Source: Patescibacteria group bacterium
Lineage (GTDB): Bacteria > Patescibacteriota > Patescibacteriia > Magasanikbacterales > JBBTQS01
Length of the DNA: 39,010 nucleotides
Direction of reading: 5' to 3'
Assembly (NCBI GenBank): GCA_038065555.1
Contig: JBBTQS010000001.1
Location: 322,741 to 361,750, forward strand
The position numbers and the translations under genes were made by a program. Positions 80 to 30,026 of this stretch are shown here, one piece after another. The first letter of the stretch is position 1; each line of letters starts with the position of its first letter. The notes beneath the pieces were generated by a model. That model worked only from the letters and a program-made list of their open reading frames with translations, made no database searches and was not told the origin of the DNA.

Positions 80-108
80 ATACTACTCTATTTTAGCAGA
101 ATTGTCAA
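80..108 (-). promoter_or_regulatory. sigma70-type promoter for a transcript running off the left edge
   Basis: Minus strand reads TTGACA(108-103)-17 nt-TAGTAT(85-80), followed by hairpin-rich sequence (catgcgt...acgcatg). Confidence 0.7.
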
Positions 109-128
109 GACTCTGGTTGTTATAAATC

Positions 129-156
129 AAAAGGCCCACGAGTGATCGTGAGCCTT
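129..156 (-). terminator. intrinsic terminator after ORF 198-623
   Basis: Minus strand aaggctcacga-tcac-tcgtgggcctt followed by tt. Confidence 0.7.
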
Positions 157-197
157 CCGGTTGTTGTCGGTGCTACGTGAACCGCGCCACGCGGTTA

Positions 198-623
198 CTA
201 CACCGATCGTTCGCTGCGGCGTTTTCGTCGTTGCAGCTGCCGATTGCGACTCGCTCGACGCCGATGCGTCCGCGCGGTGCCCAGACCGTGGTACACGTGA
301 CGACCTCGAGGTGTGGTGGCGGCTCGGAAGGAGTCGGTATCCCCGAACTCCCAGTCCCACGCGACAGTATCCCTCACTGGTCCGTACCCACCCATGTCCT
401 CCTGTTCGTGTGACATGGCTGAACCGTAATCGTCCAAGTCGAGTCCTCTGCCGCCACAGAACAGGCAGTTGGGATGGGTACAACGAGCGCCACGCGTGCT
501 GATTGCCACCAGAAACGACATATCGAGCAGCTGCACCATCCAGTAGTGTTGCGTTGTGATGGCCCCCTGTTCAGGCGCTGTCACGGGTTGGGTCACTCTT
601 CCACATTTTCCATCTACACACAT
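198..623 (-). CDS. hypothetical protein (141 aa) with Cys cluster and Arg-rich tail
   Basis: SD GGAGGA (636-631) 7 nt before ATG at 623; own promoter and terminator; CTHPNCLFCGG motif. Confidence 0.6.
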   Translation of the reverse strand: MCVDGKCGRVTQPVTAPEQGAITTQHYWMVQLLDMSFLVAISTRGARCTHPNCLFCGGRGLDLDDYGSAMSHEQEDMGGYGPVRDTVAWDWEFGDTDSFRAATTPRGRHVYHGLGTARTHRRRASRNRQLQRRKRRSERSV

Positions 624-734
624 TGTGTATTCCTCCAGGAAAAGAGTTGGGGCACACAGGTCCGAGAAATCGGGCCTTGTGCACTGGTATGACTGATTGT
701 CACACTGGTGCAAAAGGCTCGGTTTCAAGTGTAG

Positions 735-763
735 ACTCTACTCCATTTTGGGGAGGGTGTCAA
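735..763 (-). promoter_or_regulatory. sigma70-type promoter of ORF 198-623
   Basis: TTGACA(763-758)-17 nt-TAGAGT(740-735). Confidence 0.65.
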
Positions 764-778
764 GGTCATGCGGACTGG

Positions 779-814
779 AAAAACAAAGACCTGGTGTGTT
801 AGACCAAGTCTTTG
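779..814 (-). terminator. intrinsic terminator after ORF 897-1481
   Basis: caaagac/gtctttg stem plus an inner tggt/acca stem; T-tract on the minus strand. Confidence 0.65.
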
Positions 815-896
815 CGTTTGTACCCACATTGGAGTTGAGACAATATCAGTCAGTGCTGCAGGAGTCGTGGTTACCCCACCACAAACGACTGATACA

Positions 897-1481
897 TCAC
901 ACCTTCTTACGTGATCGAGACGTGAAGCGTGCTTTTTGAGCATCGCAGCGCTCCTGCGCGATCCCGACGTCTGTGAATGTGAGGCCGACACGCTTGAGTG
1001 TTGCGCGCACCTCATCCCACTGATAATTCGTAAATCCTTCGCCGGTTTCCCACTTCTTGAACGCCATCTCTGCAAGCTTTCGGTACCCGGAGTGCTCGAG
1101 TCTCACCAACTGAGCCTCATCCATCCCGAGATCCTCGATGGTTCGGTTCGCTTTTCGAAGCAGAAGCCGCGCGCGGAGCACGTACTGCCGAGGCCGGTTC
1201 GAGTTGAAACGAAAGAACTCCTCGAACTTTACTGCCTCATCGCACAGGTATTTTGCCTCAGCCAGATCGCGCTCCTCGAGCAGAAATCTCAATCGGTCCT
1301 CGATGCGTCTCTTCTCATCCTCGCTCAAACGAGAACGAAGGAGGTAGCCGAGCGCCATGCGGACTTCTACATCGAGTCGACCGCTGGTAGCAGCACGCTC
1401 TGCTCGCTCGACAGCATGACGAGTCCATGCATCGAAGTCATCGAGCGGAAGTTTCGTCTTTCTCTTTTCTCGCATTGTCAT
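897..1481 (-). CDS. hypothetical alpha-helical protein (194 aa) with an internal duplication
   Basis: GGAGG (1490-1486) upstream of ATG 1481/1475; repeats LRKANRTIEDLGMDE and LKRVGLTFTDVGIAQ. Confidence 0.75.
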   Translation of the reverse strand: MTMREKRKTKLPLDDFDAWTRHAVERAERAATSGRLDVEVRMALGYLLRSRLSEDEKRRIEDRLRFLLEERDLAEAKYLCDEAVKFEEFFRFNSNRPRQYVLRARLLLRKANRTIEDLGMDEAQLVRLEHSGYRKLAEMAFKKWETGEGFTNYQWDEVRATLKRVGLTFTDVGIAQERCDAQKARFTSRSRKKV

Positions 1482-1546
1482 GCCCCCTCCACAGCTAACA
1501 TTTTTCGTTGCGCAAAACACGCCCTTGCGCGTTCACTCAACAAAGT

Positions 1547-1575
1547 ACGTTACAAGACAAAAGCTGAATGGTCAA
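1547..1575 (-). promoter_or_regulatory. sigma70-type promoter of ORF 897-1481
   Basis: TTGACC(1575-1570)-17 nt-TAACGT(1552-1547). Confidence 0.55.
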
Positions 1576-1585
1576 GAGCTGGGTG

Positions 1586-3223
1586 TCAGCCAATACACGC
1601 CCCCACAAATTCTCGGAACAATGGATGCGGCCTGCGCGGACGCGACTTGAACTCTGGGTGGAATTGCACACCGACAAACCATGGGTGATCTGGAAGCTCG
1701 ATGATTTCGACGAGGTCTTGTTCTTTGTTCACACCGGCAAAGGTCATGCCTGCACGCGTGAGCTCATCGCGGAAATCGTTGTTGAATTCGTAGCGATGTC
1801 GATGACGCTCGGAAATGTCAGCTGCCTTGTACGCAGCATACGCGCGCGTGCCGCGTGTGATCGTACAATCGTATGCGCCCAGACGCATCGTGCCACCGTA
1901 CCGCTTGTTCGCGACGTTCTTCTGCTGGTGCGGATTCATGATAATGACTGGATGCGGCGTCTTGGGATTGATCTCCTGCGTGTTAGCCTTTGTATGCCCG
2001 AGCACGGATCGGCTGAACTCTACGCACGCAAGTTGCATACCGTAGCAAATGCCGAAGTATGGAATCTTTTTCTCACGTACAAACTGTATAGCGCGGATCA
2101 CACCTTCGATGCCCCGTGATCCGAATCCGCCAGGAACGAGCACTCCATCGAAGTTCGCAAGCTCGCGCACAAGCGCTGGATCCTTCTCATATTGCTCGGC
2201 ATCAACCCAAGTGAGGACTGGTCTTGCATTGTGATGCCATGCTGCATGCTTGAGCGCCTCGATCACTGAGATGTATGAATCCGCGAGTGTGAAGTCTCCT
2301 GTGCCAAAATACTTACCAACCACAGCAATCTTCACTTCGCGTTTGCCGTCTTGCGCCGTCGCGATCTTGGTTGCAAATGCTTTGATTGCGCTGCTGTCTT
2401 TCTTGCGAGCGCGCAGGTTGAGTGTCTTGAGGAGTTTCTCGCCGAGCTTCTCGTTTTCGAGTCGCACAGGTACTTCATAAATCGACCGTGCGTCAGGCGC
2501 AGAGATCGCGTGATCAGCTGGCACACCACATGAAATCGCGAGCTTCGCACGACGTGGCGCATCGATCTCACGTTCTGCACGACAGATTATGAAATCTGCT
2601 TGGATTCCAGCGGAATTGAGCAGTCGCGCTGCGTGCTGCGTTGGTTTGGTTTTCATCTCCCCCACCATCGCAGGAATTGGCAAATAGCTCACGAGCACAA
2701 ATGCAACGTCCTTGGGCGAAGAGAGCTTCATCGTGCGCGCGGCTTCGAGGAAGAGAATGTTCTGGTACTCGCCGACAGTTCCACCGATTTCGATCACCGT
2801 AATCTCGGCGTTGTTCTTCGTGGCAGCAGCCTTGATGCGACGAATAATTTCTTCTGGAATATGTGGAACAACTTCTACACACTTTCCTTTGTATTCCAAG
2901 TTGCGTTCTTTGTGGATCACGGTCTCGTAGACACGCCCCGTCGTCATGTAGTTGGCTGACGTGAGATCAGTGTCGAGAAATCGCTCGTAGTTGCCCATGT
3001 CCTGATCTGTCTCATCGCCATCGTCCGTTACGAAGACTTCACCGTGCTCTGTTGGATTCATGGTTCCCGCGTCGATGTTCACGTACGGATCAGCCTTCAC
3101 CGCCGTCACCGTGAACCCTTTGGTCTGCAAAATCTGCCCAATACTTGCCGCGGTAATCCCCTTGCCAACCGAGGACATCACACCGCCCACCACAAAAATA
3201 AACTTCTTGGATTTCTTTGCCAT
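1586..3223 (-). CDS. pyrG: CTP synthase
   Basis: FVVGGVMSSVGKG, DAGTMNPTEHGEVFVTDDG, GICYGMQ, ERHRHRYE, QFHPEF; start chosen at MAKKSKKF. Confidence 0.98.
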   Translation of the reverse strand: MAKKSKKFIFVVGGVMSSVGKGITAASIGQILQTKGFTVTAVKADPYVNIDAGTMNPTEHGEVFVTDDGDETDQDMGNYERFLDTDLTSANYMTTGRVYETVIHKERNLEYKGKCVEVVPHIPEEIIRRIKAAATKNNAEITVIEIGGTVGEYQNILFLEAARTMKLSSPKDVAFVLVSYLPIPAMVGEMKTKPTQHAARLLNSAGIQADFIICRAEREIDAPRRAKLAISCGVPADHAISAPDARSIYEVPVRLENEKLGEKLLKTLNLRARKKDSSAIKAFATKIATAQDGKREVKIAVVGKYFGTGDFTLADSYISVIEALKHAAWHHNARPVLTWVDAEQYEKDPALVRELANFDGVLVPGGFGSRGIEGVIRAIQFVREKKIPYFGICYGMQLACVEFSRSVLGHTKANTQEINPKTPHPVIIMNPHQQKNVANKRYGGTMRLGAYDCTITRGTRAYAAYKAADISERHRHRYEFNNDFRDELTRAGMTFAGVNKEQDLVEIIELPDHPWFVGVQFHPEFKSRPRRPHPLFREFVGACIG

Positions 3224-11927: not shown

Positions 11928-12965
11928 TTACTTCATCCACCATTTGCGCAACGCCCCTGCCTTCACTCGTCGCTTGCTCTTGATCATCTTGCGCTTGCGC
12001 ATGAGCTGAGGGTACTGTCGAGCTACTTGGAACCCAGCAACCCAGGTCCGCGGCTCTCGAAAGAGCAAATACACGAACTTTTTCCACTCATACCACTCTA
12101 TCCAGGGCCAATCCCTAAGATAGTTTGTTATATACTCATTTTTGAAAAGTGTAAAGAGGTGATTGCGGTATGAATATGCTCGCGTTGCAGGACGCATAGA
12201 TGCGCGATTTGCCGCCGCGACGCTGTCTGCGAGCTCGCGAGGGCCGGCCGCAGAACGATCGTGGTAGATCACTGCATCAGGAACCAGATATGCATTCCAC
12301 CCTGCGCTGCGCATACGCCATGCAAGATCCACATCCTCCTTGTAGCTGAAGTACGACTCATCGAACATCTGCCCGTCCAGTGCCACATCCATTGCAGCCG
12401 CGCGACGAATCATCGGCGCAGCACCTGAGACACCAAACACTTCTACCAACCCATCTGGGGTATATCGCAACTGTGACGACACGTCGGTCCAACGCTCACC
12501 CGTGTGCAATTCTGTGACACGACGATTGCGCAGCACACGCAACCCGAGCGAATCAATCACATCGGTTCGACCATGATTCCATGTTTCGCCGAACTGCCAC
12601 TTCATCAATCGACCAGAAATAATACCAGCATCAGGATGCCCATCGAGACACTGCTTGAGGCGCAACACATACTCCGGCATGAGTTGCATATCCTGATTGA
12701 GCAACAACACATACTCAGCAGTAGATTCGCGCATCAAGAGATTATGCGCTGGTGCAAATCCAATATTGCTCTCCCCCTTCGTAAATGTGTAATTGAATGC
12801 AGGAGCTTCTTGCAATTGTTTTTCAATCGCAACCACCGTTGCATCAACGGATCCATTATCATAAATCACCAACTGAAATTCACGGAACTGTTGTCCGCGC
12901 AATGACGCAAACAACTCCGGAATATACTTCGCCCCATTCCATGTGACAAGATGAATTGCGATCAT
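11928..12965 (-). CDS. GT2 glycosyltransferase
   Basis: DNGSVD, NIGFAPAHN, LLNQD, FDESYFSYKEDVDLAWR. Confidence 0.9.
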   Translation of the reverse strand: MIAIHLVTWNGAKYIPELFASLRGQQFREFQLVIYDNGSVDATVVAIEKQLQEAPAFNYTFTKGESNIGFAPAHNLLMRESTAEYVLLLNQDMQLMPEYVLRLKQCLDGHPDAGIISGRLMKWQFGETWNHGRTDVIDSLGLRVLRNRRVTELHTGERWTDVSSQLRYTPDGLVEVFGVSGAAPMIRRAAAMDVALDGQMFDESYFSYKEDVDLAWRMRSAGWNAYLVPDAVIYHDRSAAGPRELADSVAAANRASMRPATRAYSYRNHLFTLFKNEYITNYLRDWPWIEWYEWKKFVYLLFREPRTWVAGFQVARQYPQLMRKRKMIKSKRRVKAGALRKWWMK

Positions 12966-13804
12966 AGTGAGCGGAACTTTTCTGCCACCCAGGCTGCTGC
13001 GAGTGCGCAAGGGCGCAACACTGCAATGACAGCACTACGCCACCCTGGATGCCATTTACGAAAATACGTAACCATACTGGTGGTGAAGTACTGCTGCTTG
13101 CGGTACCCAGAGACAAGCGCAAAACTGCGGCCAACATAATCTACGCACGTAGCCGTTGGTGTGTAGGCAACCTTCCATCCCGCGCGCACCACCTGCATGC
13201 AGTAATCCACTTCTTCGAACCAAATGAAATACCGTTCGTCCAACCCACCTATTTTCTCGATAACTTCGCGACGAATCATGAAGCACGACCCACGCACAGA
13301 ATCAACAGACGCATCCTTGGAATAATCAAAATCCTTTTGCAAATACGCATCCAGAATTGTAGGCGCTACATGCGGCAACTTCAGGAGGATTGCCGCCTGA
13401 TCACTCACGCGCGGGAACCGACGAACGTGTGGCATGATGTTCCCCTGCTCATCAACAAGACGAGGACCAAGCACTCCAATCTCCGGATGCGCATCCATGT
13501 GCTGCACCATTTTTGCGATGGTATCCGGCGCAACGCGCATGTCAGGATTGAGCAATAATACATATCGCCCAATCGACGCACGAATCGCCTGGTTGTTCGC
13601 CGCAGCAAATCCCCGATTCACCTCATTCTTCATCAGTCGAACCTGCGGAAAATCGCGCTCAACAATCACAACCGTATCATCAGACGATGCGTTATCAACG
13701 ACAAAGAATTCGTACGTAACCCCCTCTGATGCAAAGACGGAACGCGCTTGATCACCAATAAATTTTGCACTATTCCAGGTTACGGTAACAAGAGATACGT
13801 CCAT
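12962..13804 (-). CDS. GT2 glycosyltransferase (WbbL-like)
   Basis: VDNASSD, NRGFAAANN, LLNPD, LDERYFIWFEEVD. Confidence 0.9.
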   Translation of the reverse strand: MDVSLVTVTWNSAKFIGDQARSVFASEGVTYEFFVVDNASSDDTVVIVERDFPQVRLMKNEVNRGFAAANNQAIRASIGRYVLLLNPDMRVAPDTIAKMVQHMDAHPEIGVLGPRLVDEQGNIMPHVRRFPRVSDQAAILLKLPHVAPTILDAYLQKDFDYSKDASVDSVRGSCFMIRREVIEKIGGLDERYFIWFEEVDYCMQVVRAGWKVAYTPTATCVDYVGRSFALVSGYRKQQYFTTSMVTYFRKWHPGWRSAVIAVLRPCALAAAWVAEKFRSL

Positions 13805-13821
13805 AGAGGTTTGCCCTCCAC

Positions 13822-14733
13822 CTACTGCACTAGACTCAATTTGTGTACCGTATCTTGCTCTGTCTTTGCCATGGCTGCACGTGACGCCTCACTCGCCAGA
13901 TTCTGTTTGAAGAGATGGAGAATTTCAGCGAGACGTTCGTGAATTTCTTTGAGATGGATCCCCAGTCCTTCTAGACGCGCGCCTGAGAGCACGCAATCAA
14001 CACGTGTTGCGAGCGTCATTTTGTTGAGCTCCTCCTTGCTGATTTTCACGAACTCCATTTCAGGCTTCACAATTTCCTTGAGCATGGTCGCAACTTGAAA
14101 TGGCGTGATGATCCCTGGATTAACGACATTATATACACCCGTGACACGACGCGCGACGAGCTGGTCCGTGACATCGAGCAAGTCTTCAACAATCGTGCAA
14201 GAATTAGGTGTATCAATGAACTTCTTGTACGTGAGGAACTTGGTCACGGCGTTGCGCGGGCTCACGGTTGCGCTGAGCAGCTGTCGCGGGCGCAAAATAA
14301 GTGCCTGCAACCCTTGACGGCGCACGCGATCCAATACGAGATTCTCTGCCCAGACCTTGGTCCAAGAATAGAAGCACAACGGTGTTGGTGGCTCGTCCTC
14401 TGTGTGTACATCTTCTGCATTCTTACTCTCCTGCACACACCCACTTGAAATCTGATACAAGTAAATTCCCGACGCCGCACACGCTGCTGCAACATTGTCA
14501 GCACCAAGCGTGTTCACCTCGAATGCTTCGGTGCGATTCTGCTCGCACCAGTCAATATCCGTCTTCGCTGCAGCATTGATCACAAAATCTGGCTTTGCAG
14601 ATTCCACCGCAGCCTGCACCGCTGCACCATCGCGAATATCCACGCGATCGTTAATCACCTCATCACCTTTTGCTTCGTAATAATTCTTGTAATACGTTCC
14701 GAGCTGCCCCTGTCCGAAAATCAATACCTTCAT
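13822..14733 (-). CDS. RmlD-family dTDP-4-dehydrorhamnose reductase, NRS/ER-like
   Basis: GQGQLG Rossmann motif, VINAAAKTDIDWCE, SSGC, YSWTK (YxxxK), PNSCTIVEDLL. Confidence 0.82.
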   Translation of the reverse strand: MKVLIFGQGQLGTYYKNYYEAKGDEVINDRVDIRDGAAVQAAVESAKPDFVINAAAKTDIDWCEQNRTEAFEVNTLGADNVAAACAASGIYLYQISSGCVQESKNAEDVHTEDEPPTPLCFYSWTKVWAENLVLDRVRRQGLQALILRPRQLLSATVSPRNAVTKFLTYKKFIDTPNSCTIVEDLLDVTDQLVARRVTGVYNVVNPGIITPFQVATMLKEIVKPEMEFVKISKEELNKMTLATRVDCVLSGARLEGLGIHLKEIHERLAEILHLFKQNLASEASRAAMAKTEQDTVHKLSLVQ

Positions 14734-14734
14734 A

Positions 14735-15757
14735 TTAGTTTTTGCCAATCGCGTCATTATAGTAGTTGTCGTAATACTTCTGATACTCGCCAGACTTGCA
14801 ACGCTTCCACCATTCCTGATGATCGCGATACCACTCCACGGTTGCGCGCAATCCATCATCAAAAGGAATAAGTGGTACCCAGCCAAGCTCTTCCATTATT
14901 TTGCTCGGGTCGAGCACGTAACGTCGATCGTGCTGCAAGCGATCAGGAACATATGACTTGAGCGACTGTGGTTTGCCGAGGATTTCGAGAATGGCATCAG
15001 CGAGCTGCTCTACACTCTTCTCGACGCGCGTTCCGATATTATACGACTCACCCACGGTCCCACGGCGAACAATCGCATCAATTCCCGCAGAATGATCGTC
15101 CACATGAATCCACTCACGACGATTCTGACTCGACTTGAACAGTGGCAATGGCTTGTCCTCAAGCGCATTGGTTACAAACAACGGGATCACCTTCTCTGGG
15201 AACTGGAACGGACCGTAATTATTCGCACAGTGACTGATCGTCACAGGCAACTTGTACGTGTGATAATACGCAGTCACAATGTGATTCGCTGCAGCCTTGC
15301 TCGCATTGTATGGAGTCTTTGGTGCAAATGAATCACTCTCCTTGAACATGCGATCCTCATCAAGCGCCAAATCACCGAACACTTCGCACGTCGAAATGTG
15401 ATGGAATCGAGAGACCTTTGTACGACGTGCACCCTCGAGCAAAATCTGCGTGCCCATGACATTAGTGCGCACAAAAATACCTGGATCAAGAATCGCGCGA
15501 TCATTGTGCGACTCCGCAGCAAAGTTCACCACCACATCACACCCCTCCATCGCCGCTAACACCTGCTCAAGATTCGTGATATCTCCCTGCACAAACCGAT
15601 AGCGCGGATCCGCAGCCACGCTCACCAAATTCTCAAGATTCCCCGCATACGTGAGTGCGTCAAAATTGACGACCTTCGCATCCTGATGCGTTCGCAAAAT
15701 ATACTGGATGAAATTCGCACCAATAAATCCCGCACCTCCTGTTACAAAATAGGTCAT
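14735..15757 (-). CDS. rmlB: dTDP-glucose 4,6-dehydratase
   Basis: VTGGAGFIG, DALTYAGN, FAAESH, YNASKA, NNYGPFQFPEK, HDRRY. Confidence 0.95.
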   Translation of the reverse strand: MTYFVTGGAGFIGANFIQYILRTHQDAKVVNFDALTYAGNLENLVSVAADPRYRFVQGDITNLEQVLAAMEGCDVVVNFAAESHNDRAILDPGIFVRTNVMGTQILLEGARRTKVSRFHHISTCEVFGDLALDEDRMFKESDSFAPKTPYNASKAAANHIVTAYYHTYKLPVTISHCANNYGPFQFPEKVIPLFVTNALEDKPLPLFKSSQNRREWIHVDDHSAGIDAIVRRGTVGESYNIGTRVEKSVEQLADAILEILGKPQSLKSYVPDRLQHDRRYVLDPSKIMEELGWVPLIPFDDGLRATVEWYRDHQEWWKRCKSGEYQKYYDNYYNDAIGKN

Positions 15758-16843: not shown

Positions 16844-18418
16844 TTACTTTTCAATATGATACAGCGCATGCGTGCCGAATCGATCGACCTCCACCACACG
16901 TCCGCCCGTAGCACCCGCGAGCTGCTGAGATTCATCCGCACGCAACACAAGTCCGAAGAACCACTGATCCACAGCAAGTGACTTGCGCACACGAGTCACA
17001 GTTCGTGCTGGCCAGAAATGTTTGTCCCATTTGTCCACAATAATCACACTTGACTCTGGCACTCGTGCCAATACGCGCTCTCGCACCGCAACAACAGCAT
17101 CACGCTCGCGCAAGAGCGACGCGAATCCGTCTACACCACTAGCGCCCGTGAGCATACTCGCGCCAAACCAACAAACGAAAAATCCCATCCAAATTCCCGC
17201 CATATACCTGCGCCCTTCGCTACGAAATCGCTCGAACACGCGCCACAACACATACGCCACAAACGGCAACACAACCACAAATACTGGCAACCAATATCGA
17301 AAGAATGAAGATCCAATGGTCACCAACTCAGGCGTTGGATTGTCTCGAACAATCCACGACCCATACATGAGAATTGGATACCAAATCCAAGCCAGTGTGA
17401 GCAGAATATATTTCCCCCGTTCTGTAGTGAACAGCGCGCGTGCCAGAATCCATCGCACAAGGACAACACCAAGCGCGCCCGCAGACACCACCCCAACAAA
17501 TCCCAAACTCAAAAAGCCAATATTCCACATGTTGTGCAGCACCAACCGCGGATGAATCCCAAAAGGAAAGAGCGCATCCAAAAATGACGGAAGCGCAATC
17601 ACATATCCACTCACACTTCCCAGGATCCCCGGATACAATCCCACCACACCCATACACACGATCAACGCAGTACCCCAAATCCACACCAACACACGATCCT
17701 TCCACGCACGATAGATGATCGCTGCAGCCAGCAACAACAGTCCAACCCACACCATTTCAACCGGACGAACAAATGCAGCCAGAGCAAGCACCCCCATACC
17801 GAGCACATGATTTGCAACACGCATGACCAGCACTCTTCCCGCTGATCGCATCGGTTCAATCAGCACCAACCACAGACCAATGATGATCAGTGACACAACC
17901 AGCACATTCGGATACAACCCGCGCGCTGTGTAATACCACCACGCAGGATGCAGACACAACAACATCACACTGGTCATGGCAATACGATCTCCCCACACAC
18001 GTCGTACCAACCCAAAGAACGCGAGACACGCAATACTCGCAATAAGTGGTGTCAGAATCCAGAACACTTTCACTCCCAACACCTTTGCAACACCACCATA
18101 CAACACCAACATGCCATAAAAAGTCGCGGGGACATATGCGCCCTCGCGAAACGAAACACTTCTCGGCGCCAACCCTTCTTCCACCGCCACCACAGGAGCA
18201 GGAATACGCAACGCACTTGTAGCCTCATACTCGTGCACAAACGCGCGGGTCACCATTTCATCTGGAGAATTTGTCAGTGGTTGGAGCTGATGTGCAAGTG
18301 CACTCGTGATCACAAAAAAAAGCAGCACCATCGCGACGGCGATGCGCAACGACGGGTTCACAAGCCATTTGTTCACCACGTTCTCACTTACCCACTGTGC
18401 GATTCCTTGAGAGATCAT
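16844..18418 (-). CDS. multi-pass membrane protein, GT-C (PMT/ArnT-like) glycosyltransferase candidate
   Basis: Many TM segments; acidic SPDE motif in the first loop; FFRYWLP. Confidence 0.65.
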   Translation of the reverse strand: MISQGIAQWVSENVVNKWLVNPSLRIAVAMVLLFFVITSALAHQLQPLTNSPDEMVTRAFVHEYEATSALRIPAPVVAVEEGLAPRSVSFREGAYVPATFYGMLVLYGGVAKVLGVKVFWILTPLIASIACLAFFGLVRRVWGDRIAMTSVMLLCLHPAWWYYTARGLYPNVLVVSLIIIGLWLVLIEPMRSAGRVLVMRVANHVLGMGVLALAAFVRPVEMVWVGLLLLAAAIIYRAWKDRVLVWIWGTALIVCMGVVGLYPGILGSVSGYVIALPSFLDALFPFGIHPRLVLHNMWNIGFLSLGFVGVVSAGALGVVLVRWILARALFTTERGKYILLTLAWIWYPILMYGSWIVRDNPTPELVTIGSSFFRYWLPVFVVVLPFVAYVLWRVFERFRSEGRRYMAGIWMGFFVCWFGASMLTGASGVDGFASLLRERDAVVAVRERVLARVPESSVIIVDKWDKHFWPARTVTRVRKSLAVDQWFFGLVLRADESQQLAGATGGRVVEVDRFGTHALYHIEK

Positions 18419-20284: not shown

Positions 20285-20287
20285 CGA

Positions 20288-20315
20288 AACCCCCTCAGTG
20301 TTACTTGAGGGGGTT
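20288..20315. terminator. hairpin terminator between convergent units
   Basis: aaccccctca/tgagggggtt 10-bp stem. Confidence 0.7.
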
Positions 20316-20675
20316 CTACCATCTGTACGAGCAAGACCAGGGTGAGCCGATGGCTGCTCAATCCTTCCTTTCGGCCAATGATGGATCGAAATCCACATTG
20401 GATCTTGCACGCGCGCCCGCGAATGCTTGTATCGCCGTCAGCCTCTAGGAGGCCGTCGGCTACTCAGATGCAATGCGAGCGCGATCGTCGCGCCGGCGCT
20501 GGTCAGTTCGTCGAGATGGCCGCGGCGTCGATCAAGTTGAAAGCATTGAAGTTGTGATCGCCGTTCAGCACGGCGCGGTCGGGCTTCAGGGGTCGTCGGA
20601 TCATGGCTTCCTCCGTAGTTCACCATGAAGGTAGTGACATAGCACTTACTCGTGGCAACGCCGCGAGCTTTGCTG
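20290..20675 (-). ncRNA. candidate ~390-nt structured RNA containing a 33-codon ORF
   Basis: Own promoter and terminator; nested stems with TTCG and GAAA loops; G-U pairs on the minus strand. Confidence 0.45.
20503..20604 (-). CDS. putative 33-aa peptide MIRRPLKPDRAVLNGDHNFNAFNLIDAAAISTN
   Basis: GGAGG (20614-20610) 5 nt before ATG. Confidence 0.4.
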   Translation of the reverse strand: MIRRPLKPDRAVLNGDHNFNAFNLIDAAAISTN

Positions 20676-20680
20676 GCACC

Positions 20681-20709
20681 AACCTATCAGCTTTTCTAAA
20701 ATCTGTCAA
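20681..20709 (-). promoter_or_regulatory. sigma70-type promoter
   Basis: TTGACA-17 nt-(TGa)TAGGTT. Confidence 0.65.
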
Positions 20710-20720
20710 GGGGGCGGCAC

Positions 20721-20757
20721 AAAAAAACAAGACGCACCCGTATGAGTACGTCTTGTT
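20721..20757 (-). terminator. intrinsic terminator after the 616-aa ORF
   Basis: aacaagacgtactc-atac-gggtgcgtcttgtt followed by a T-run. Confidence 0.8.
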
Positions 20758-20796
20758 GGTTCGAGCAGCTTCAGCCCCCTCCTCTGAGGCCTCTAG

Positions 20797-22647
20797 CTAT
20801 TCCCCTTGACTGCGCAACAGATCAGCGAATGTACCGAAGCCACCCTTACCGCCGGACGCCTGCTGCGCACGGTGGACCGGACGGGCCTCAGCACGTTTGC
20901 CCAGTTCCGACACCGAATGTGACGGCACCGCGAGATACGGACGTGCGTACTCAGTCATGCGGGGTCGCCAATTCTCGGGCATCGGGTCCACATCACAGTA
21001 GTACAATACATTCGCCTGGATCAGAACCCCGCACCGCTGCGGATCAACGACGAACCGTCGCATACCGCACACGTCACGAACATCCGCGAACCATCGCTTG
21101 GAAAGCTCACCGAACTCGAAAGCGATCTTCATGACCGTTCCGTCTTGGACACGTTCCTCTGCCCGACGATACCGCTCTGCCTGAACCGCCGGCAGCGTAA
21201 CGCGCTCCCACACTGGATCGTAGGTGCAGCTCGTTACGAAGTGCGTTTCTGCTTGCGGAAGCTCCAGCAACGCCGCAGTGTTGATGCTCAGCGCTGGTTG
21301 GAGGCGGTTGGATTCGTTCACCAACACCCAACGGATCAGCGCCACACCGTTGTACCGCACTGCGAAGATGGTGGTGGTACTCCATCCTTTGTAGTCTGCG
21401 CGATCGAACAGCTCAGGGATTTGTCCACGAACCAGATGCATCCTCCGAGCACTGTGCACAGCCTGGACGATGGCCGGCGCTTCCGTATTCCGCTCGTCCC
21501 ACCCACGCTCCGGACATCCGCATCCCGTGAGTCGCAGTTCGCCCAGCACGAGCACGGTATCCAGATCACCGCGTTGATACCCTTCTCCACACAGAATGCA
21601 GGTGGGGCACCAGTGATCAAGCAGCGCCGTGAGACGCTCCTTGAGTCCACGACTCTCGCAAGCCATCGCTCGTTCCAGGTAGGTTTCGTCGATCGCAGCA
21701 CGGAGTGCATTGATCGCCGCTTCCCATTCTTGACACTGCGCCATGAGTTCGACCGGGTTGATCTGCCCGTGATCTGGCAAGAACACGATCTTCGCTTCAT
21801 ACTCGATCACCAGCTTCTGATCGACCATGGTACGCACGCCCCAGTACCATGGTAGTGCAGTAAGCGCTTCTTCCTTTTGACACACGGAGTGGAAGAGATC
21901 CACAACTGCCTTCTGGTCACGCCTGAACTGGAGTTCCGCTTGATGATCCCGAAAGGTTTCTTCAACCAGAACCCGCGATCTCTGCGCATTCTCGAGTGTC
22001 TCGAACCACAGCAGTTCCGAGGTACGAAAGTTCGCATCAGCGTCGAACATGCCGTACCGATACAGATCCTCGCCCGTTTCTGGACAGGAGCCGTAGTGGT
22101 ATTGCATGATCTCCGGAATCTGCGCCGTCGGATCATGCGGATCGGGATACTGCATCCCCGGCAGCGCGGTCTTGTGGAAATGCCAGACGACACGCCGCAG
22201 CATCCGCAGCGCCTCAACCTCATCACACCCAATCCGCCAGTGCGGAACGTGACGCGATTCGCACTCCGCGTACCGGAATGCGATGACCGGCACATCATCA
22301 ATGGAGCCGATCTCTCGACGCTCCAACCGCTCGTACTCCTTTTGTGCCAGCGATTGATGCGCGAGCCACGACTTCCCTTCCTCGGTGTCCCGATAGGACT
22401 CCGTGAGCACGCGCCGAAGCGCGTCGTTGCGGTTGAGGTACCATGCCCATGCGGGGTGAGACGTCTTTCCCCCGTCATATCCCCAGCCGTAGTGCACGAC
22501 GCCATACGCATGCACCAGCGTCCCGTCATCGAGCTGACCAACCGCGATCTCGAGCACCGGCTCTTCTGCCGTGGGCACAAACGATACTGCCGACAGCCGC
22601 CAATTCTCCGCGATCCACAGGTCCAGAACTTCTTGTGCATTTCGCAT
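20797..22647 (-). CDS. 616-aa hypothetical protein with N-terminal repeats, coiled coil and Cys cluster
   Basis: SD GAGGAG upstream; long uninterrupted ORF; CPTCILC...CGC. Confidence 0.85.
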   Translation of the reverse strand: MRNAQEVLDLWIAENWRLSAVSFVPTAEEPVLEIAVGQLDDGTLVHAYGVVHYGWGYDGGKTSHPAWAWYLNRNDALRRVLTESYRDTEEGKSWLAHQSLAQKEYERLERREIGSIDDVPVIAFRYAECESRHVPHWRIGCDEVEALRMLRRVVWHFHKTALPGMQYPDPHDPTAQIPEIMQYHYGSCPETGEDLYRYGMFDADANFRTSELLWFETLENAQRSRVLVEETFRDHQAELQFRRDQKAVVDLFHSVCQKEEALTALPWYWGVRTMVDQKLVIEYEAKIVFLPDHGQINPVELMAQCQEWEAAINALRAAIDETYLERAMACESRGLKERLTALLDHWCPTCILCGEGYQRGDLDTVLVLGELRLTGCGCPERGWDERNTEAPAIVQAVHSARRMHLVRGQIPELFDRADYKGWSTTTIFAVRYNGVALIRWVLVNESNRLQPALSINTAALLELPQAETHFVTSCTYDPVWERVTLPAVQAERYRRAEERVQDGTVMKIAFEFGELSKRWFADVRDVCGMRRFVVDPQRCGVLIQANVLYYCDVDPMPENWRPRMTEYARPYLAVPSHSVSELGKRAEARPVHRAQQASGGKGGFGTFADLLRSQGE

Positions 22648-22763
22648 TTCACTCTCCTCAATTGTCGATGATCTTCCCGCGTGCTACGCCCCTCTGGCGC
22701 ACCATCGCAGACCACGCAACTCCGCAAGCAACGTGGTCTACTATCGTGCTAAAATAACTTCAA

Positions 22764-22792
22764 ATACTACTCGATTGTAGCAAAAATGTCAA
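22764..22792 (-). promoter_or_regulatory. sigma70-type promoter of the 616-aa ORF
   Basis: TTGACA-17 nt-TAGTAT. Confidence 0.7.
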
Positions 22793-22815
22793 GAGGTGAC
22801 AGCCACTAAAATAAC

Positions 22816-27413: not shown

Positions 27414-27737
27414 ATGTCCATGTTCTCGAAGCTCAAGCAGATTAAGGATCTCCGCGACCAAGCAAAAGTGCTCCAGGATGCGCTCGGCCAAGAACGCGCT
27501 GAATCTACCGTCAACAATGTGACCGTAGTCATGAACGGCAACCTCGAAGTACTCGAGGTACGCATCCCACCCGAGATGCTCAATGCAGATCGCAAAGACA
27601 AGCTCCAGAGCGCACTCAAGGAAGCATACAACGACACGCTCAAGAAGGTGCAGAAGTCGATGGCAGTGAAGATGAAGGACATGGGCGGACTTGATTTCCT
27701 CAAAGGACTTGGCGGTTCCGCGACTGACGCCGAGTAA
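27414..27737 (+). CDS. ybaB: YbaB/EbfC nucleoid-associated protein
   Basis: VTVVMNGNLEVLEVRI...LKEAYND; directly upstream of recR. Confidence 0.85.
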   Translation: MSMFSKLKQIKDLRDQAKVLQDALGQERAESTVNNVTVVMNGNLEVLEVRIPPEMLNADRKDKLQSALKEAYNDTLKKVQKSMAVKMKDMGGLDFLKGLGGSATDAE

Positions 27738-27748
27738 TCTCGTCTCGC

Positions 27749-28351: not shown

Positions 28352-28354
28352 CAG

Positions 28355-28380
28355 AAAACCGTCGGTGTTACCAACGGTTT
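28355..28380. terminator. bidirectional terminator between recR and a convergent cassette
   Basis: Minus strand aaaccgttggt-aac-accgacggttt. Confidence 0.7.
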
Positions 28381-28417
28381 CCAGGTTTGAACGCTCTGTT
28401 GTCGGCGTTCACGACTT

Positions 28418-28753
28418 TCACGGAGTTCGCAGCTGCCTCCATTTGGCTGCGATCCCTCGACCAATCCAGCGGAAGAACTGCTGTGTGCGAGGCCAGCCCG
28501 TGCGAACCCAGGCAGCCCAGACCCAGCGACCAATCGCACGTGCCGCGTCACGCACCAGCGGCCAAACGCGCCTCCACACGAACTTCACAGCCCCTGTGAT
28601 GATCTTCCAAACGATTGCCAGCATGCTCTGGATGAGCCGCACAGCAAACGTCTGATTGATCCGCGCGCTCTTCTTTGGTCCCATGAACATGGTCATGAAG
28701 GCCGCAGCCATGATCCAGAGGAGAAGCAGTGGCCCCACGAGTTGTTCGAGCAT
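28418..28753 (-). CDS. 111-aa membrane protein with a Trp/Arg-rich amphipathic tail
   Basis: SD AAGGAG 5 nt before ATG; N-terminal TM helix. Confidence 0.7.
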   Translation of the reverse strand: MLEQLVGPLLLLWIMAAAFMTMFMGPKKSARINQTFAVRLIQSMLAIVWKIITGAVKFVWRRVWPLVRDAARAIGRWVWAAWVRTGWPRTQQFFRWIGRGIAAKWRQLRTP

Positions 28754-28763
28754 GAGCTCTCCT

Positions 28764-29141
28764 TCAGTCGTGCACACGTCTCCAGAGACGAAACTCTCCC
28801 ACTTCAGAGTTATAGCTCAGAATGAAGTCCGTCGCCCTGTACAGTAGCTGTGGCTGATGGTAGAGCATCACCGGGTGGTCCTCGCAGAAGTACACGTCGA
28901 CAATCACATTATCTGGGGAATCGTCCTTGTAGTGCCCCGCGACGCAATGCACCTTCAGGAAGGTGACCTGTGCATTCTCGACGGTCACGGTAATCTCCTT
29001 GAAGGGAAACAGATCCCCCGAGTGAATATGACGGTCGAAGTCCCCGACCAGATTCCGATTCAACACCGCAGCGGCGACTGCATAACACTCTGCACCAGAC
29101 TTTTCCAAGGTGCGCTCGACACTACTCAGGATCTCGTCCAT
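28764..29141 (-). CDS. 125-aa hypothetical protein
   Basis: SD GGAGG (29151-29147) 5 nt before ATG; own promoter. Confidence 0.7.
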   Translation of the reverse strand: MDEILSSVERTLEKSGAECYAVAAAVLNRNLVGDFDRHIHSGDLFPFKEITVTVENAQVTFLKVHCVAGHYKDDSPDNVIVDVYFCEDHPVMLYHQPQLLYRATDFILSYNSEVGEFRLWRRVHD

Positions 29142-29190
29142 GTCACCCTCCGACTCATGCATTCGAACACACCTCGTGCTCGAATGGCAC

Positions 29191-29219
29191 ATACTATCAC
29201 TTTTCACCATTTTTGTCAA
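29191..29219 (-). promoter_or_regulatory. sigma70-type promoter of the two-gene cassette
   Basis: TTGACA-17 nt-(TGa)TAGTAT. Confidence 0.75.
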
Positions 29220-29246
29220 CGCAACCAGCGCATGAAGTTTCATAAT

Positions 29247-29296
29247 AAAAAAGTGCCCGACAGACAAGATCCAATGGATCAAGATCTGCCGAGCAC
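29247..29296 (-). terminator. intrinsic terminator
   Basis: gtgctcggcaga...tctgtcgggcac followed by T6. Confidence 0.8.
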
Positions 29297-29307
29297 CAAG
29301 TAGCCAA

Positions 29308-29329
29308 GCCTGCCTGCCGGTAGGCAAGT
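29308..29329. repeat. REP-like palindrome (CCTGCCTGCCGGYAGGCARG type)
   Basis: gcctgcctgccggtaggcaagt imperfect palindrome in the 3' UTR. Confidence 0.5.
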
Positions 29330-29340
29330 TGCGAAGGTTG

Positions 29341-29967
29341 TTACTCCTCGACGAACTCCGGCACCGCACAGCTCCGATACGCAGTCCCACGGTCGCCCGC
29401 ACCCACGCCGAACTCGCGATCGTCAGTGTCGACCCACGCACTCGGCACGAGGCGAGGCTTGCCGCCGGAGACCTTGCATTCGAGACCAGCCATCCACAGG
29501 AACGGATGTTCAGCGGAGCCGTTCATGCGTCTCGCGACCTCTGGATGCTGCGCGAGCATCGAGATGATCTCACGACCTGGCATCTGACGCCCGTCCTTGA
29601 GCACGTTCTCCGGCGATTGCCCGTAATTGGCGGTGCGCCGGATACGAACCCAGCGCTGTCGCCAGCTCGGATACTCGACATTACCACACAAGAAGAGACG
29701 CTCGGGGTCGGTCATGAACTCCGACCACCAACTCTTGTTCTGCTGCTCGGCGGCCCACGACCAGGTAAACAAGATCTCCACGTTGAGCGTCGAGAACGAG
29801 CGATCGAGCACCACGGCCTCACCCCGGTCGTCTGAGAAGAGGCGCGGATGAGGCGATCCGTCCCAGACGAACTTCTTCGGATTGATCCCCATAGCGGAAC
29901 ATCGCGCGTCGTAGTTGGCGATGACCTCGGAGAGCGGAGTGTACATATGATGAATGAGCTGTGGCAC
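29341..29967 (-). CDS. hypothetical protein, possibly C-type-lectin-like fold (start GTG 29967 or ATG 29979)
   Basis: GGAGG 5 nt before GTG; MLAQHPE...PFLWMAG...VPSAWVD...AVPEF. Confidence 0.75.
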   Translation of the reverse strand: MPQLIHHMYTPLSEVIANYDARCSAMGINPKKFVWDGSPHPRLFSDDRGEAVVLDRSFSTLNVEILFTWSWAAEQQNKSWWSEFMTDPERLFLCGNVEYPSWRQRWVRIRRTANYGQSPENVLKDGRQMPGREIISMLAQHPEVARRMNGSAEHPFLWMAGLECKVSGGKPRLVPSAWVDTDDREFGVGAGDRGTAYRSCAVPEFVEE

Positions 29968-29995
29968 GTTGACCTCCATGGTTGTGTGTGCGCCT

Positions 29996-30026
29996 ATGCT
30001 ATATCACATTTGGAACAATCTGTCAA
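29996..30026 (-). promoter_or_regulatory. promoter of ORF 29341-29967
   Basis: TTGACA, then TATAGC at 17 nt or TAGCAT at 19 nt. Confidence 0.5.

What the first reader, a model, noticed from the sequence alone, without database searches (positions are those of the whole stretch)
80..30026. Self-contained, SD-led ORFan expression cassettes inside an SD-less chromosome
Seen: six orphan units, all on the minus strand (198-623, 897-1481, 20503-20604, 20797-22647, the pair 28418-29141, and 29341-29967), plus a seventh promoter at 80-108, share a design. (i) A near-consensus TTGACA/C-17 nt-TAnnnT promoter. (ii) In most, a stem-loop near the predicted 5' end, e.g. cattcgagcac/gtgttcgaatg before 29141, gtagaccacg/cgtggtctgc before 22647, gcgcaa/ttgcgc before 1481. 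(iii) A strong SD (GGAGG, GAGGAG or AAGGAG) 4-10 nt before the start. (iv) An intrinsic terminator. They are stacked head-to-tail between housekeeping genes, which almost never have an SD (exceptions: a hairpin-buried GGAGG before 13804, and an AAGGAG only 2 nt before rmlB). No att sites, integrase or transposase are visible. Established: 5' stem-loops and 3' terminator hairpins stabilise bacterial mRNA, and CPR bacteria are thought to be mostly host-associated. Inference: this is a second expression programme making stable, SD-dependent mRNAs. Options are a regulon for a specific life stage, repeated acquisition from an SD-using donor or phage, or (speculative) transcripts built to be read by host-type ribosomes.
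Basis: partly seen in the sequence, partly recalled or inferred. Interest (0 to 1): 0.88.

Follow-up and report, generated by a model that had tools for sequence, protein, structure and literature searches.

The report
SD-led ORFan cassettes, SD-less genome
In this tiny groundwater bacterium almost all core genes start translation without a Shine-Dalgarno site, while a fast-evolving set of orphan genes, each with its own promoter and terminator, keeps one, so the genome appears to run two ways of starting protein synthesis side by side.

Summary
With my own gene call (870 genes), 613 starts have T at -1 and only 100 have a strong, correctly spaced SD. SD-led starts rise from 1.3% to 49% across GC3 bins, while the internal-codon background stays at 2.5-4.1%. 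The trend survives SD-blind start choice.

SD-led, GC3-rich genes are mostly Pfam-less: 3/30 reach the cut-off against 19/30 length-matched controls. They are poorly conserved in a same-genus genome: 8/22, median identity 47%, against 92/98 and 85%. They sit in intergenic slots whose content differs between relatives. One cassette is a clean 426-bp presence/absence difference between strains.

The promoter type and the 5' hairpins are not cassette-specific. Relatives' 16S keep the anti-SD. The bS21 gene carries an extended SD order-wide, 28/29 loci, as in Bacteroidia.

Best reading: a resident, fast-evolving accessory cassette pool is translated by the cell's own ribosomes through SD pairing. 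GC3 stays high in 8/8 conserved orthologues and the SD in 5/8. Nothing supports translation by host ribosomes.

The parts
1..108 (-). Promoter TTGACA-17-TAGTAT (108-80) and leader of a further cassette. Its SD (GGAGG) and ATG lie just left of the window, with the ORF starting 33 nt before base 1.
   Evidence: sequence read directly
124..763 (-). Unit 1. Promoter 763-735 (TTGACA-17-TAGAGT), leader hairpin about 682-652, SD GGAGG 636-632, ORF 623-198 (141 aa, Cys-rich with an Arg-rich tail), terminator hairpin and T-run about 156-124.
   Evidence: sequence. No Pfam, PHROGs or PADLOC hit. No match in G001 syntenic DNA. Below my gene caller's threshold.
779..1575 (-). Unit 2. Promoter 1575-1547 (TTGACC-17-TAACGT), hairpin 1530-1510, SD GGAGGGGG 1490-1483, ORF 1481-897 (194 aa), terminator about 813-779.
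   Evidence: No family hits. No match in G001.
20287..20718 (-). Unit 3, the small-peptide cassette. Promoter 20709-20681 (TTGACA-17-TAGGTT), SD GGAGG 20614-20610, 33-aa ORF 20604-20503, about 190-nt 3' region, bidirectional terminator 20316-20287. Positions 20293-20718 form a strain-level indel.
   Evidence: A joint skipping 20293-20718, replaced by the same 12 letters, is seen in an RNA-library contig (X14) and in a DNA contig of another study (X8).
20726..22792 (-). Unit 4. Promoter 22792-22764 (TTGACA-17-TAGTAT), leader hairpin 22741-22707, SD GAGGAG 22659-22654, ORF 22647-20797 (616 aa, GC3 0.67), terminator 20757-20726.
   Evidence: Only 3 relatives in 5.8 billion proteins (98, 88 and 56% identity). 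None found in G001-G005, genome contigs or viral contigs. Present on an RNA-library contig.
28354..29219 (-). Unit 5, a two-gene cassette. Promoter 29219-29191 (TTGACA-17-TAGTAT), hairpin 29186-29160, SD GGAGGG 29151-29146, ORF 29141-28764 (125 aa), SD AAGGAG 28764-28759, ORF 28753-28418 (111 aa, hydrophobic N-terminus, W/R-rich), terminator 28382-28354.
   Evidence: GC3 0.70 and 0.72. No family hits. No match in G001.
29246..30026 (-). Unit 6. -35 TTGACA 30026-30021, TGn-TATAGC -10 (30006-29998), SD GGAGGT 29977-29972, GTG start 29967, ORF to 29341 (208 aa, GC3 0.77), long terminator hairpin and T-run about 29296-29246.
   Evidence: Database protein of exactly 208 aa, with relatives at 72, 58 and 51% identity. 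Paralogue at G000:C1:492807-493586 shares the 3' UTR and terminator.
12962..15757 (-). GGAGG lies 10 nt before the GT2 gene start at 13804, and AAGGAG 2-3 nt before the rmlB start at 15757.
   Evidence: Low GC3 (0.52 and 0.55). The SD is not retained in the G001 orthologues (0 of 3 genes of this kind), so these are probably chance occurrences.

Best explanation
The window's units belong to a genome-wide class of fast-evolving, lineage-restricted accessory genes. About 70 genes are both SD-led and GC3-rich, and 172 of 870 fall in the class by the looser rule (SD-led, or GC3 at least 0.65).

Each is a self-contained cassette: the genome's ordinary sigma-70-type promoter, a 20-80-nt leader, a strong SD, a short ORF and an intrinsic terminator. 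The cassettes sit in intergenic slots between conserved genes and are gained, lost, duplicated and relocated as units.

The organism's own ribosomes translate them through SD:anti-SD pairing. Core genes, ribosomal-protein genes included, use an SD-independent mode marked by U at -1, which can pair with A37 of the initiator tRNA, and by G-poor, weakly structured start regions.

Shown here: the two classes, their statistical separation, the cassette anatomy, slot variability, a strain-level indel, cassette duplication, and retention of GC3 and SD in orthologues.

Inferred: that the SDs are functional and under selection, and that the anti-SD is only partly available, as in Bacteroidia. That last point is suggested by the order-wide extended SD on the bS21 gene.
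For: Two classes:
- T at -1 in 613/870 starts and a strong SD in 100/870, against an internal background of 3.1%.
- SD% by GC3 bin is 1.3, 4.2, 7.0, 16.2, 38.4, 49.1. The internal control is flat at 2.5-4.1%. -1 T runs 79, 80, 77, 64, 43, 25%.
- With SD-blind starts the split is 31/128 against 18/634, p=3e-14.
- SD genes against the rest: GC3 0.657 against 0.545 (p=1e-24), promoter within 200 nt 41% against 10%, terminator 32% against 14%, upstream gap 133 against 47.5 nt.
- Ribosomal-protein cluster: 0/27 with an SD, 25/27 with -1 T.

ORFan status:
- Pfam above cut-off in 3/30 against 19/30 length-matched controls, p=3e-5.

Variability:
- G001 synteny breaks exactly at the units. Its slots hold other cassettes of the same design.
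- Conservation in G001 is 8/22 (median identity 47%) for SD-led GC3-rich genes against 92/98 (85%) for ordinary genes.
- The 426-bp cassette indel appears in two independent runs.
- A paralogue shares its terminator with unit 6. A family member sits in another neighbourhood in L122.

Maintenance:
- In the 8 conserved orthologues GC3 stays at 0.61-0.77, and a strong SD is retained in 5/8. It is retained in 0/3 low-GC3 housekeeping genes with an SD.

Own ribosomes can use an SD:
- The anti-SD is intact in 12/12 readable relatives' 16S.
- The bS21 SD is present in 28/29 loci at -20.9 kcal/mol, rank 2 of 870.
- Class II start regions are more structured than class I, -12.0 against -8.4 kcal/mol.
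- The initiator tRNA has A37. -1 U:A37 pairing is described in PMC10018350 (passages read).
Against: - The genome's own 16S is not assembled, so its anti-SD is inferred from relatives.
- Gene calls and starts are home-made. The refined start choice favoured SD-bearing starts, although the SD-blind control still holds.
- SD retention rests on 8 orthologue pairs.
- No translation or transcription-start data exist. RNA-library contigs show presence only and may contain DNA.
- Why GC3 is high is unexplained. The shift is purely synonymous (GC1/GC2/GC3 0.622/0.429/0.686 against 0.598/0.427/0.534) and does not resemble that of ribosomal-protein genes (r=-0.07).
- If the anti-SD is sequestered as in Bacteroidia, ordinary ribosomes might read these SDs poorly.
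- Protein function is unknown for every unit.
Confidence: 0.62

Rival explanations
1. Recent horizontal imports. The cassettes are DNA newly acquired from GC-richer, SD-using donors such as host bacteria, phages or plasmids. Their SD and GC3 are unameliorated donor signatures with no role in this organism.
For: - Atypical composition and codon usage.
- Patchy presence among relatives, and slots A and B that appear empty in the family-level relative G002 by the coordinates of flanking genes.
- A strain-level indel.
- GeneMarkS-2 treats atypical genes as likely horizontal transfers (PMC6028130, passages read).
Against: - No relatives were found beyond close kin: 3 hits in 5.8 billion proteins for the 616-aa unit, none in 185,579 species genomes or in IMG/VR, and no PHROGs or PADLOC hit for 10 proteins.
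- No integrase or transposase appears among the window ORFs, and there are no flanking repeats.
- The promoters are of the native type.
- GC3 (8/8) and the SD (5/8) persist in orthologues at 28-69% identity, where backbone DNA is only 72-81% identical.
- GC1 and GC2 are hardly shifted.
Confidence: 0.2
2. Ribosome-state-gated programme. As in Bacteroidia, bS21 hides the anti-SD. SD-led cassette mRNAs are then translated mainly by ribosomes lacking bS21, which ties the accessory pool to a growth or stress state.
For: - The SD-poor core, intact anti-SD and order-wide extended SD on the bS21 gene (28/29 loci; -20.9 kcal/mol) match the Bacteroidia signature (PMC9976891 passages read; PMC7797042 and PMC13000453 abstracts only).
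- The protein is bS21 by Pfam (below cut-off) and by PDB matches.
Against: - Sequestration is structural and was not tested here.
- In F. johnsoniae only rpsU has a strong SD, and an extended SD is needed for the effect (PMC9976891 passages). Here about 100 genes carry ordinary SDs with a median of -10.9 kcal/mol.
- There are no expression data.
Confidence: 0.15
3. Transcripts built to be read by host-type ribosomes.
For: Only that the SD-led class differs from the core genes and that CPR bacteria are thought to be host-associated. The latter is general knowledge and was not tested here.
Against: - Relatives keep an intact anti-SD.
- The cell's own bS21 and S2 genes are SD-led.
- Cassette promoters are the organism's own type.
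- No export signal or mechanism is evident.
Confidence: 0.01
4. Artefact. The SD motifs arise by chance in GC-rich DNA or from biased start calling, and the ORFs are not genes.
For: - Duplex energies alone separate real starts from internal sites only weakly (50/870 against 29/789 at -9 kcal/mol or below).
- Unit 198-623 fell below my coding threshold.
Against: - The positional peak of GGAGG/AGGAG lies at -15 to -4.
- The internal background is flat across GC3 bins.
- The SD-blind control holds.
- The 616-aa and 208-aa proteins have full-length relatives at 51-88% identity.
Confidence: 0.02

Closest known systems
Bacteroidia (Bacteroidota) translation: sequestered anti-SD with bS21 (rpsU) autoregulation through an extended SD
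   Same: The anti-SD is intact although core genes lack SDs. Ribosomal-protein genes are SD-less. A conserved, very strong extended SD sits on the bS21 gene (about -21 kcal/mol here, and a mode near -20 in Bacteroidia according to passages of PMC9976891).
   Different: - This is a different phylum (CPR-like: uL30 not found, 0.9-Mb genome).
- The start-context signal is U at -1, not upstream adenines.
- About 100 further genes carry ordinary strong SDs, whereas F. johnsoniae has essentially one.
- Sequestration itself is untested here.
- The two Bacteroidia papers searched do not mention Patescibacteria or CPR.
Atypical, likely horizontally transferred gene class in prokaryotic genomes (GeneMarkS-2 native and atypical models; groups B and X with non-SD starts)
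   Same: A compositionally deviant minority of genes with patchy distribution, in a genome whose dominant start signal is not an SD.
   Different: - Here the atypical class also differs in its translation-initiation signal.
- It is GC-richer rather than AT-richer.
- It keeps these traits in diverged orthologues.
- It has no detectable donor.
Integron gene cassettes and small genomic islets
   Same: Single-gene modules stacked head-to-tail in fixed slots, with presence or absence varying between close strains.
   Different: - Every cassette here has its own promoter and terminator.
- No attC-like or flanking repeats and no integrase were found.
- The slots are scattered all over the chromosome.
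Extended (quadruplet) start-codon pairing: U at -1 with A37 of the initiator tRNA
   Same: U at -1 is the only strong start-context signal of the core genes (0.56 bits), and the initiator tRNA has A37.
   Different: In E. coli this is a modest modulator (PMC10018350, passages read). Here it marks about 70-80% of core starts and appears to be the main signal. The initiator tRNA also has C33 instead of U33.

Membership tests
Bacteroidia-type anti-SD sequestration with bS21 autoregulation | Canonical anti-SD retained at the 16S 3' end | tested here: inconclusive
   The own genome has no 16S assembled. All 12 relatives' 3' ends that matched my probe, 2 of them from the same family, read GGATCACCTCCTT. 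Two further loci, L009 and L012, did not match the probe and were not read.
Bacteroidia-type anti-SD sequestration with bS21 autoregulation | Genome-wide lack of SDs on core and ribosomal-protein genes | tested here: met
   SDs occur at 1.3-7% of genes with GC3<0.6, against an internal background of about 3%. 0 of 27 genes in the ribosomal-protein cluster have one.
Bacteroidia-type anti-SD sequestration with bS21 autoregulation | Conserved extended SD on rpsU | tested here: met
   28 of 29 relatives' loci carry an SD-like motif, mostly (G)GAGGTGA. In G000 the duplex is -20.9 kcal/mol, rank 2 of 870.
Bacteroidia-type anti-SD sequestration with bS21 autoregulation | rpsU is essentially the only strongly SD-led gene | tested here: not met
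   100/870 genes have a strong, correctly spaced SD.
Bacteroidia-type anti-SD sequestration with bS21 autoregulation | The 16S 3' tail is physically held by bS21, bS18 and bS6 | not testable with these tools
   This needs a ribosome structure or biochemistry.
Horizontally acquired island or mobile element | Atypical composition and patchy distribution | tested here: met
Horizontally acquired island or mobile element | Integrase or transposase, att sites or flanking repeats | tested here: not met
   No such Pfam domain appears among 40 window ORFs. There are no repeats at the indel boundaries. Only short, imperfect two-copy repeats inside ORFs were found.
Horizontally acquired island or mobile element | Homologues in a donor lineage or in phages | tested here: not met
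   The only relatives found are close kin.
Integron gene cassette array | Promoterless ORFs with attC sites next to an integrase | tested here: not met
   Each unit has its own promoter. No shared flanking repeat was found. No integrase was found.
Leaderless mRNA genes | The -10 box lies about 7-10 nt before the start codon | tested here: not met
   Predicted leaders of SD genes are 20-80 nt (median 40). Only 7 of 72 non-SD promoter genes have leaders under 5 nt.
Candidate Phyla Radiation (Patescibacteria) | Small genome lacking uL30 | tested here: met
   The genome is 0.91 Mb and 98.8% complete. The Pfam L30 model was not found, while the control rings in 13/14 genomes. PMC9297842 states that all CPR lack uL30 (passage read). 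No taxon name was obtained.

The most novel reading that the evidence does not exclude
A whole order of CPR bacteria has independently arrived at a Bacteroidia-like 'SD-blind' ribosome, autoregulated through bS21. Beyond that, it uses the residual SD channel as a translational gate for a fast-evolving accessory gene pool of Cys- and Trp-rich orphan proteins, possibly for host or phage interaction. Under this reading the cassettes are expressed mainly when ribosomes lack bS21. High GC3 and the SD would then be selected features of this second channel, not traces of foreign origin.
Probability: 0.15. Interest if true: 0.9.

Novelty: new variant of a known kind. Interest (0 to 1): 0.72.

Why it matters
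How CPR bacteria start translation is hardly described. My text searches turned up only the loss of the anti-SD in some Parcubacteria (PMC9297842).

This genome shows a clean split within a single cell. Core genes use one initiation signal (U at -1, no SD), and a rapidly turning-over orphan gene pool uses another (the SD).

- It gives a sequence-only marker for the accessory and orphan genes of such genomes.
- It warns that gene finders trained on a single start model will misplace starts in one of the two classes.
- It extends the bS21/extended-SD signature beyond Bacteroidota.
- It makes testable whether ribosome composition gates expression of accessory genes in ultra-small symbionts.

Tried and rejected
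- Rfam at gathering thresholds found nothing in the window.
- The ESM Atlas gave no usable hit for the 616-aa protein.
- PHROGs and PADLOC gave no hits for the 7 units plus 3 other class II proteins.
- The 616-aa family has no relatives in genome contigs or viral contigs.
- The AlphaFold model of the 208-aa family, from a 4-sequence alignment, had pLDDT 38.4 and pTM 0.29, so I ran no fold search. I did not use the second structure job.
- Duplex energy alone is a poor SD classifier here because coding DNA is G-rich. I replaced it with motif plus spacing.
- 5' leader hairpins as a cassette hallmark: rejected, because both classes are equally structured.
- High GC3 as translational optimisation: rejected (r=-0.07 with the ribosomal-protein shift).
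- Class II as one paralogous family: rejected, since most are singletons, although small families do exist.
- My first impression that G001's small peptide and W/R-rich protein are homologues of the window's units is not supported by tblastn (E of 0.2 or more). It remains only a positional resemblance.
- Parts of the laid stretch without RNA or DNA contig cover (for example 28459-30100 in X18 and 28999-30102 in X8) are not evidence of absence or silence.
- One script failed on N letters in G001. I reran it with N-containing codons treated as breaks.
- Supplementary files of papers were not consulted. SD statistics per phylum in the supplements of PMC6028130 or PMC9976891 might already list CPR genomes.

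Full report
**Setting.** The window is G000:C1:322741-361750 of a 907,835-bp, 6-contig assembly with 52% GC, 42 tRNA genes and 98.8% completeness. The Pfam model for uL30 finds nothing, while its control rings in 13 of 14 known genomes. I obtained no taxon name. Runs that hold the DNA are groundwater metagenomes.

**Window gene content.** Pfam recognises the housekeeping backbone: pyrG, era, a riboflavin kinase, an S41 protease, murA, rml and glycosyltransferase genes, HIT, dnaB, a GT4 transferase, clpB, mraZ, rsmH and uvrC.

**The observation.** Reading the minus strand confirms every element.
- Promoters: TTGACA or TTGACC, 17 nt, then TAGAGT, TAACGT, TAGGTT or TAGTAT.
- SDs: GGAGG, GAGGAG or AAGGAG, 4-8 nt before the starts at 623, 1481, 20604, 22647, 29141, 28753 and 29967.
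- Terminators: confirmed for four of them by the scan tool, which also lists two of the promoters at 10/12 matches.
- Corrections: the -10 of unit 29341-29967 is TATAGC behind a TGn. Two terminators sit about 85 and about 190 nt after their stop codons. The 'seventh promoter' at 80-108 drives another SD-led ORF that begins 33 nt left of the window.

**Is it more than chance, and is the chromosome SD-less?** I built a hexamer-based gene call for the whole genome: 870 genes, 88% coding.
- Upstream of starts there is no purine-rich signal on average, but a strong T at -1 (58% before start refinement).
- After refinement 613/870 starts have T at -1 and 100/870 have a strong SD (GGAGG, AGGAG, GAGGT or AAGGA, spacing 3-11). 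The rate at 17,067 internal in-frame start codons is 3.1%.
- SD cores peak at -15 to -4.
- The only informative start-context position of non-SD genes is -1 (0.56 bits).
- All 27 genes of the ribosomal-protein cluster lack an SD, and 25 have T at -1.

So the 'SD-less chromosome' and the '-1 T' are both real.

SD-led genes differ sharply from the rest:

| Property | SD-led genes | Other genes | p |
|---|---|---|---|
| Median GC3 | 0.657 | 0.545 | 1e-24 |
| Coding score per codon | 0.22 | 0.33 | 8e-18 |
| Median upstream gap (nt) | 133 | 47.5 | 7e-10 |
| Strict promoter within 200 nt | 41% | 10% | 5e-14 |
| Terminator | 32% | 14% | 1e-5 |

Across six GC3 bins the signals change as follows:

| GC3 bin | SD-led starts | -1 T | Internal SD control |
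|---|---|---|---|
| <0.50 | 1.3% | 79% | 3.2% |
| 0.50-0.55 | 4.2% | 80% | 3.2% |
| 0.55-0.60 | 7.0% | 77% | 2.9% |
| 0.60-0.65 | 16.2% | 64% | 2.5% |
| 0.65-0.70 | 38.4% | 43% | 3.9% |
| >0.70 | 49.1% | 25% | 4.1% |

- My refinement rewarded SD-bearing starts, so I repeated the test with starts chosen by coding score alone. The result is 31/128 against 18/634, p=3e-14.
- Independently of gene calls, 65 of 144 strict promoters are followed by SD, start and an ORF of at least 25 aa, against 10% of random anchors.
- For ORFan status I drew 30 of the 68 SD-led genes with GC3 at least 0.6 that lie outside the window, plus 30 length-matched ordinary genes. Pfam's curated cut-off was reached by 3/30 (a sigma-70 region 2, a vWA-TerF-like domain and ribosomal protein S2) against 19/30, p=3e-5.

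**What is not cassette-specific.** The TTGACN-17-TAnnnT promoter is the genome's general promoter: 144 sites against 17 for the reversed pattern. It precedes housekeeping genes such as rplU. Of the 110 genes with such a promoter in their upstream gap, 72 are SD-less. Promoter cores are the same in both classes. Only 3 of 69 positions differ at p<0.01, all within 6 nt after the -10. Predicted leaders fold better than shuffles in both classes and do not differ from each other (z -0.92 against -1.34, p=0.66). The distinguishing traits are therefore the SD, the high synonymous GC content and the monocistronic packaging.

**Variability.**
- DNA synteny with the same-genus genome G001 runs at 72-81% identity. 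It breaks exactly at window 1-1592, 20294-22812 and 28414-30062.
- G001's slots contain other cassettes of the same build, with one, three and one promoter-SD-ORF-terminator units.
- None of the seven window units has a tblastn match there (best E 0.058). Seven other genes from the window, most of them Pfam-less, match at 61-95% identity.
- Over two syntenic blocks (141 genes), conservation in G001 by class was:

| Class | Conserved in G001 | Median aa identity |
|---|---|---|
| Ordinary (no SD, GC3 <0.65) | 92/98 | 85% |
| SD-led, GC3 ≥0.6 | 8/22 | 47% |
| GC3 ≥0.65 without SD (e.g. rplU, ybaB, mraZ, era) | 11/15 | 91% |
| SD-led, GC3 <0.6 | 3/6 | 86% |

- By the coordinates of the flanking genes, slots A and B appear empty in the family-level relative G002.
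- At strain level, an RNA-library contig (X14) and a DNA contig from another study (X8) both join 20292 to 20719 through the same 12 letters, with flanks about 96% identical. What they skip is precisely the small-peptide cassette. Another study's contig (X5) carries everything.
- The indel has no flanking repeats.
- The 208-aa unit has a 58%-identical paralogue at C1:492807-493586 that shares its 3' UTR and terminator hairpin.
- In L122, a short contig from a relative that is filed under another phylum, a family member lies beside homologues of C1:461.6-465 kb, a third context.
- Class II genes are scattered genome-wide in small clusters: 55 adjacent pairs against 33.6 expected, with a maximum of 51 in 2000 permutations.

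**Origin.** I found no donor.
- The 616-aa protein has 3 relatives among 5.8 billion proteins (98, 88 and 56% identity, all full length). None turned up in five family genomes, in 185,579 species genomes or in IMG/VR.
- Ten class II proteins hit no PHROGs or PADLOC family.
- The compositional shift is almost purely synonymous: GC1/GC2/GC3 0.622/0.429/0.686 against 0.598/0.427/0.534. It is unrelated to the codon preferences of ribosomal-protein genes (r=-0.07). The proteins are enriched in Cys (2.2-fold) and Trp (1.3-fold).
- In the 8 conserved orthologue pairs GC3 stays at 0.61-0.77 in G001, and a strong SD is kept in 5/8 despite 28-69% protein identity.

Traits that survive this much divergence look like an equilibrium or a selected state, not a fading import signature. 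The sample is small, and why GC3 is high remains unexplained. Biased gene conversion at recombination-prone slots, or selection on mRNA structure, are possibilities I could not test.

**Can the cell's own ribosomes read these SDs?**
- The assembly lacks a 16S gene. All 12 relatives' 16S 3' ends that I could read carry GGATCACCTCCTT, two of them from the same family. Two further loci did not match my probe and were not read.
- The bS21 gene (Pfam S21 below cut-off, PDB S21 matches) has an extended SD worth -20.9 kcal/mol, the second strongest of 870 genes. The medians are -10.9 for class II and -4.5 for class I.
- An SD-like motif, mostly (G)GAGGTGA, precedes bS21 in 28 of 29 relatives' loci across ten families.
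- The gene after bS21 has T at -1 in 17/20 loci and an SD in 1/20.
- This is the signature described for Bacteroidia, where bS21, bS18 and bS6 sequester the anti-SD and ribosomes lacking bS21 translate rpsU through its extended SD (PMC9976891 passages read; PMC7797042, PMC13000453 and PMC13000457 abstracts only). The two of these papers that I searched do not mention Patescibacteria or CPR.
- The promoter-leader-GGAG-ATG pattern occurs in all 31 genomes of the order sampled: 446 sites against 48 for a decoy.
- Both classes relax structure around the start, but class II start regions remain more structured, -12.0 against -8.4 kcal/mol, p=6e-7. That fits a need for SD anchoring.
- For the core mode, U at -1 can pair with A37 of the initiator tRNA (PMC10018350, passages read). 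This genome's initiator tRNA has A37.

**Verdict.** The finding is real, extends to the whole genome and probably to the order, and is not an artefact.
- Best-supported reading (0.62): a resident, fast-evolving accessory cassette pool that depends on SD-led initiation by the organism's own ribosomes, alongside an SD-independent core.
- Simple recent import (0.20) explains the variability but not the persistence of the traits or the lack of any donor.
- Gating by ribosome state through bS21 (0.15) is the most interesting extension and remains untested.
- Nothing supports translation by host ribosomes (0.01), and an artefact is unlikely (0.02).
- Transcription starts, mRNA stability, translation and the function of every cassette protein all remain unmeasured.

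Noticed in passing
G000:C1:10819-11061 (outside the window); relatives' loci L085-L113: The bS21 (rpsU) gene carries an extended SD (-20.9 kcal/mol, rank 2 of 870 genes). An SD-like motif is conserved in 28 of 29 loci across the order. This is the Bacteroidia-type autoregulation signature in a CPR-like lineage.
   Followed up: partly
G000:C3:25511-25584 (minus strand; outside the window): The initiator tRNA (C1xA72 mismatch) has the anticodon loop C-C-CAU-A-A. That gives C at position 33 instead of the near-universal U33, with A37 present.
   Followed up: partly
just left of the window (ORF starts 33 nt before base 1); window 124-156; L076 (G001 slot after pyrG): The cassette left of the window, unit 198-623 and G001's slot cassette all encode Cys-rich proteins with Arg-rich C-terminal tails. 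Their terminator hairpins look alike, which suggests a tandemly duplicated, fast-diverging cassette family.
   Followed up: no
window 21866-21945: An 80-nt patch inside the 616-aa ORF has the same length but is diverged in two other strains (X14, X8). The flanks are about 96% identical.
   Followed up: no
L122 (3.9-kb contig from genome contigs): The contig is filed under a Gammaproteobacteria MAG. Its genes match G000:C1:461.6-465 kb at up to about 91% identity, so it is probably a mis-binned fragment of a relative. It carries a member of the 208-aa cassette family in a different neighbourhood.
   Followed up: partly
listing: genomes G010, G024, G030 and G018 (families of the same order): Many promoter-SD leaders in these genomes contain a recurring GTTC(A/T)TT.ACA-like motif a few bases after the -10 box. 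Its meaning is unknown. These genomes also have the highest cassette-pattern counts (up to 47).
   Followed up: no
G000:C3:128225 (gene g0746, 132 aa): This gene has the strongest predicted SD:anti-SD duplex in the genome (-21.3 kcal/mol). It lies before a member of a 10-gene paralogous family that includes a tandem run at C3:127-129 kb.
   Followed up: no
window 20293-20502: The 33-aa peptide ORF is followed by an unusually long 3' region of about 190 nt before its terminator. G001's counterpart cassette has about 170 nt. Rfam found no family there.
   Followed up: partly
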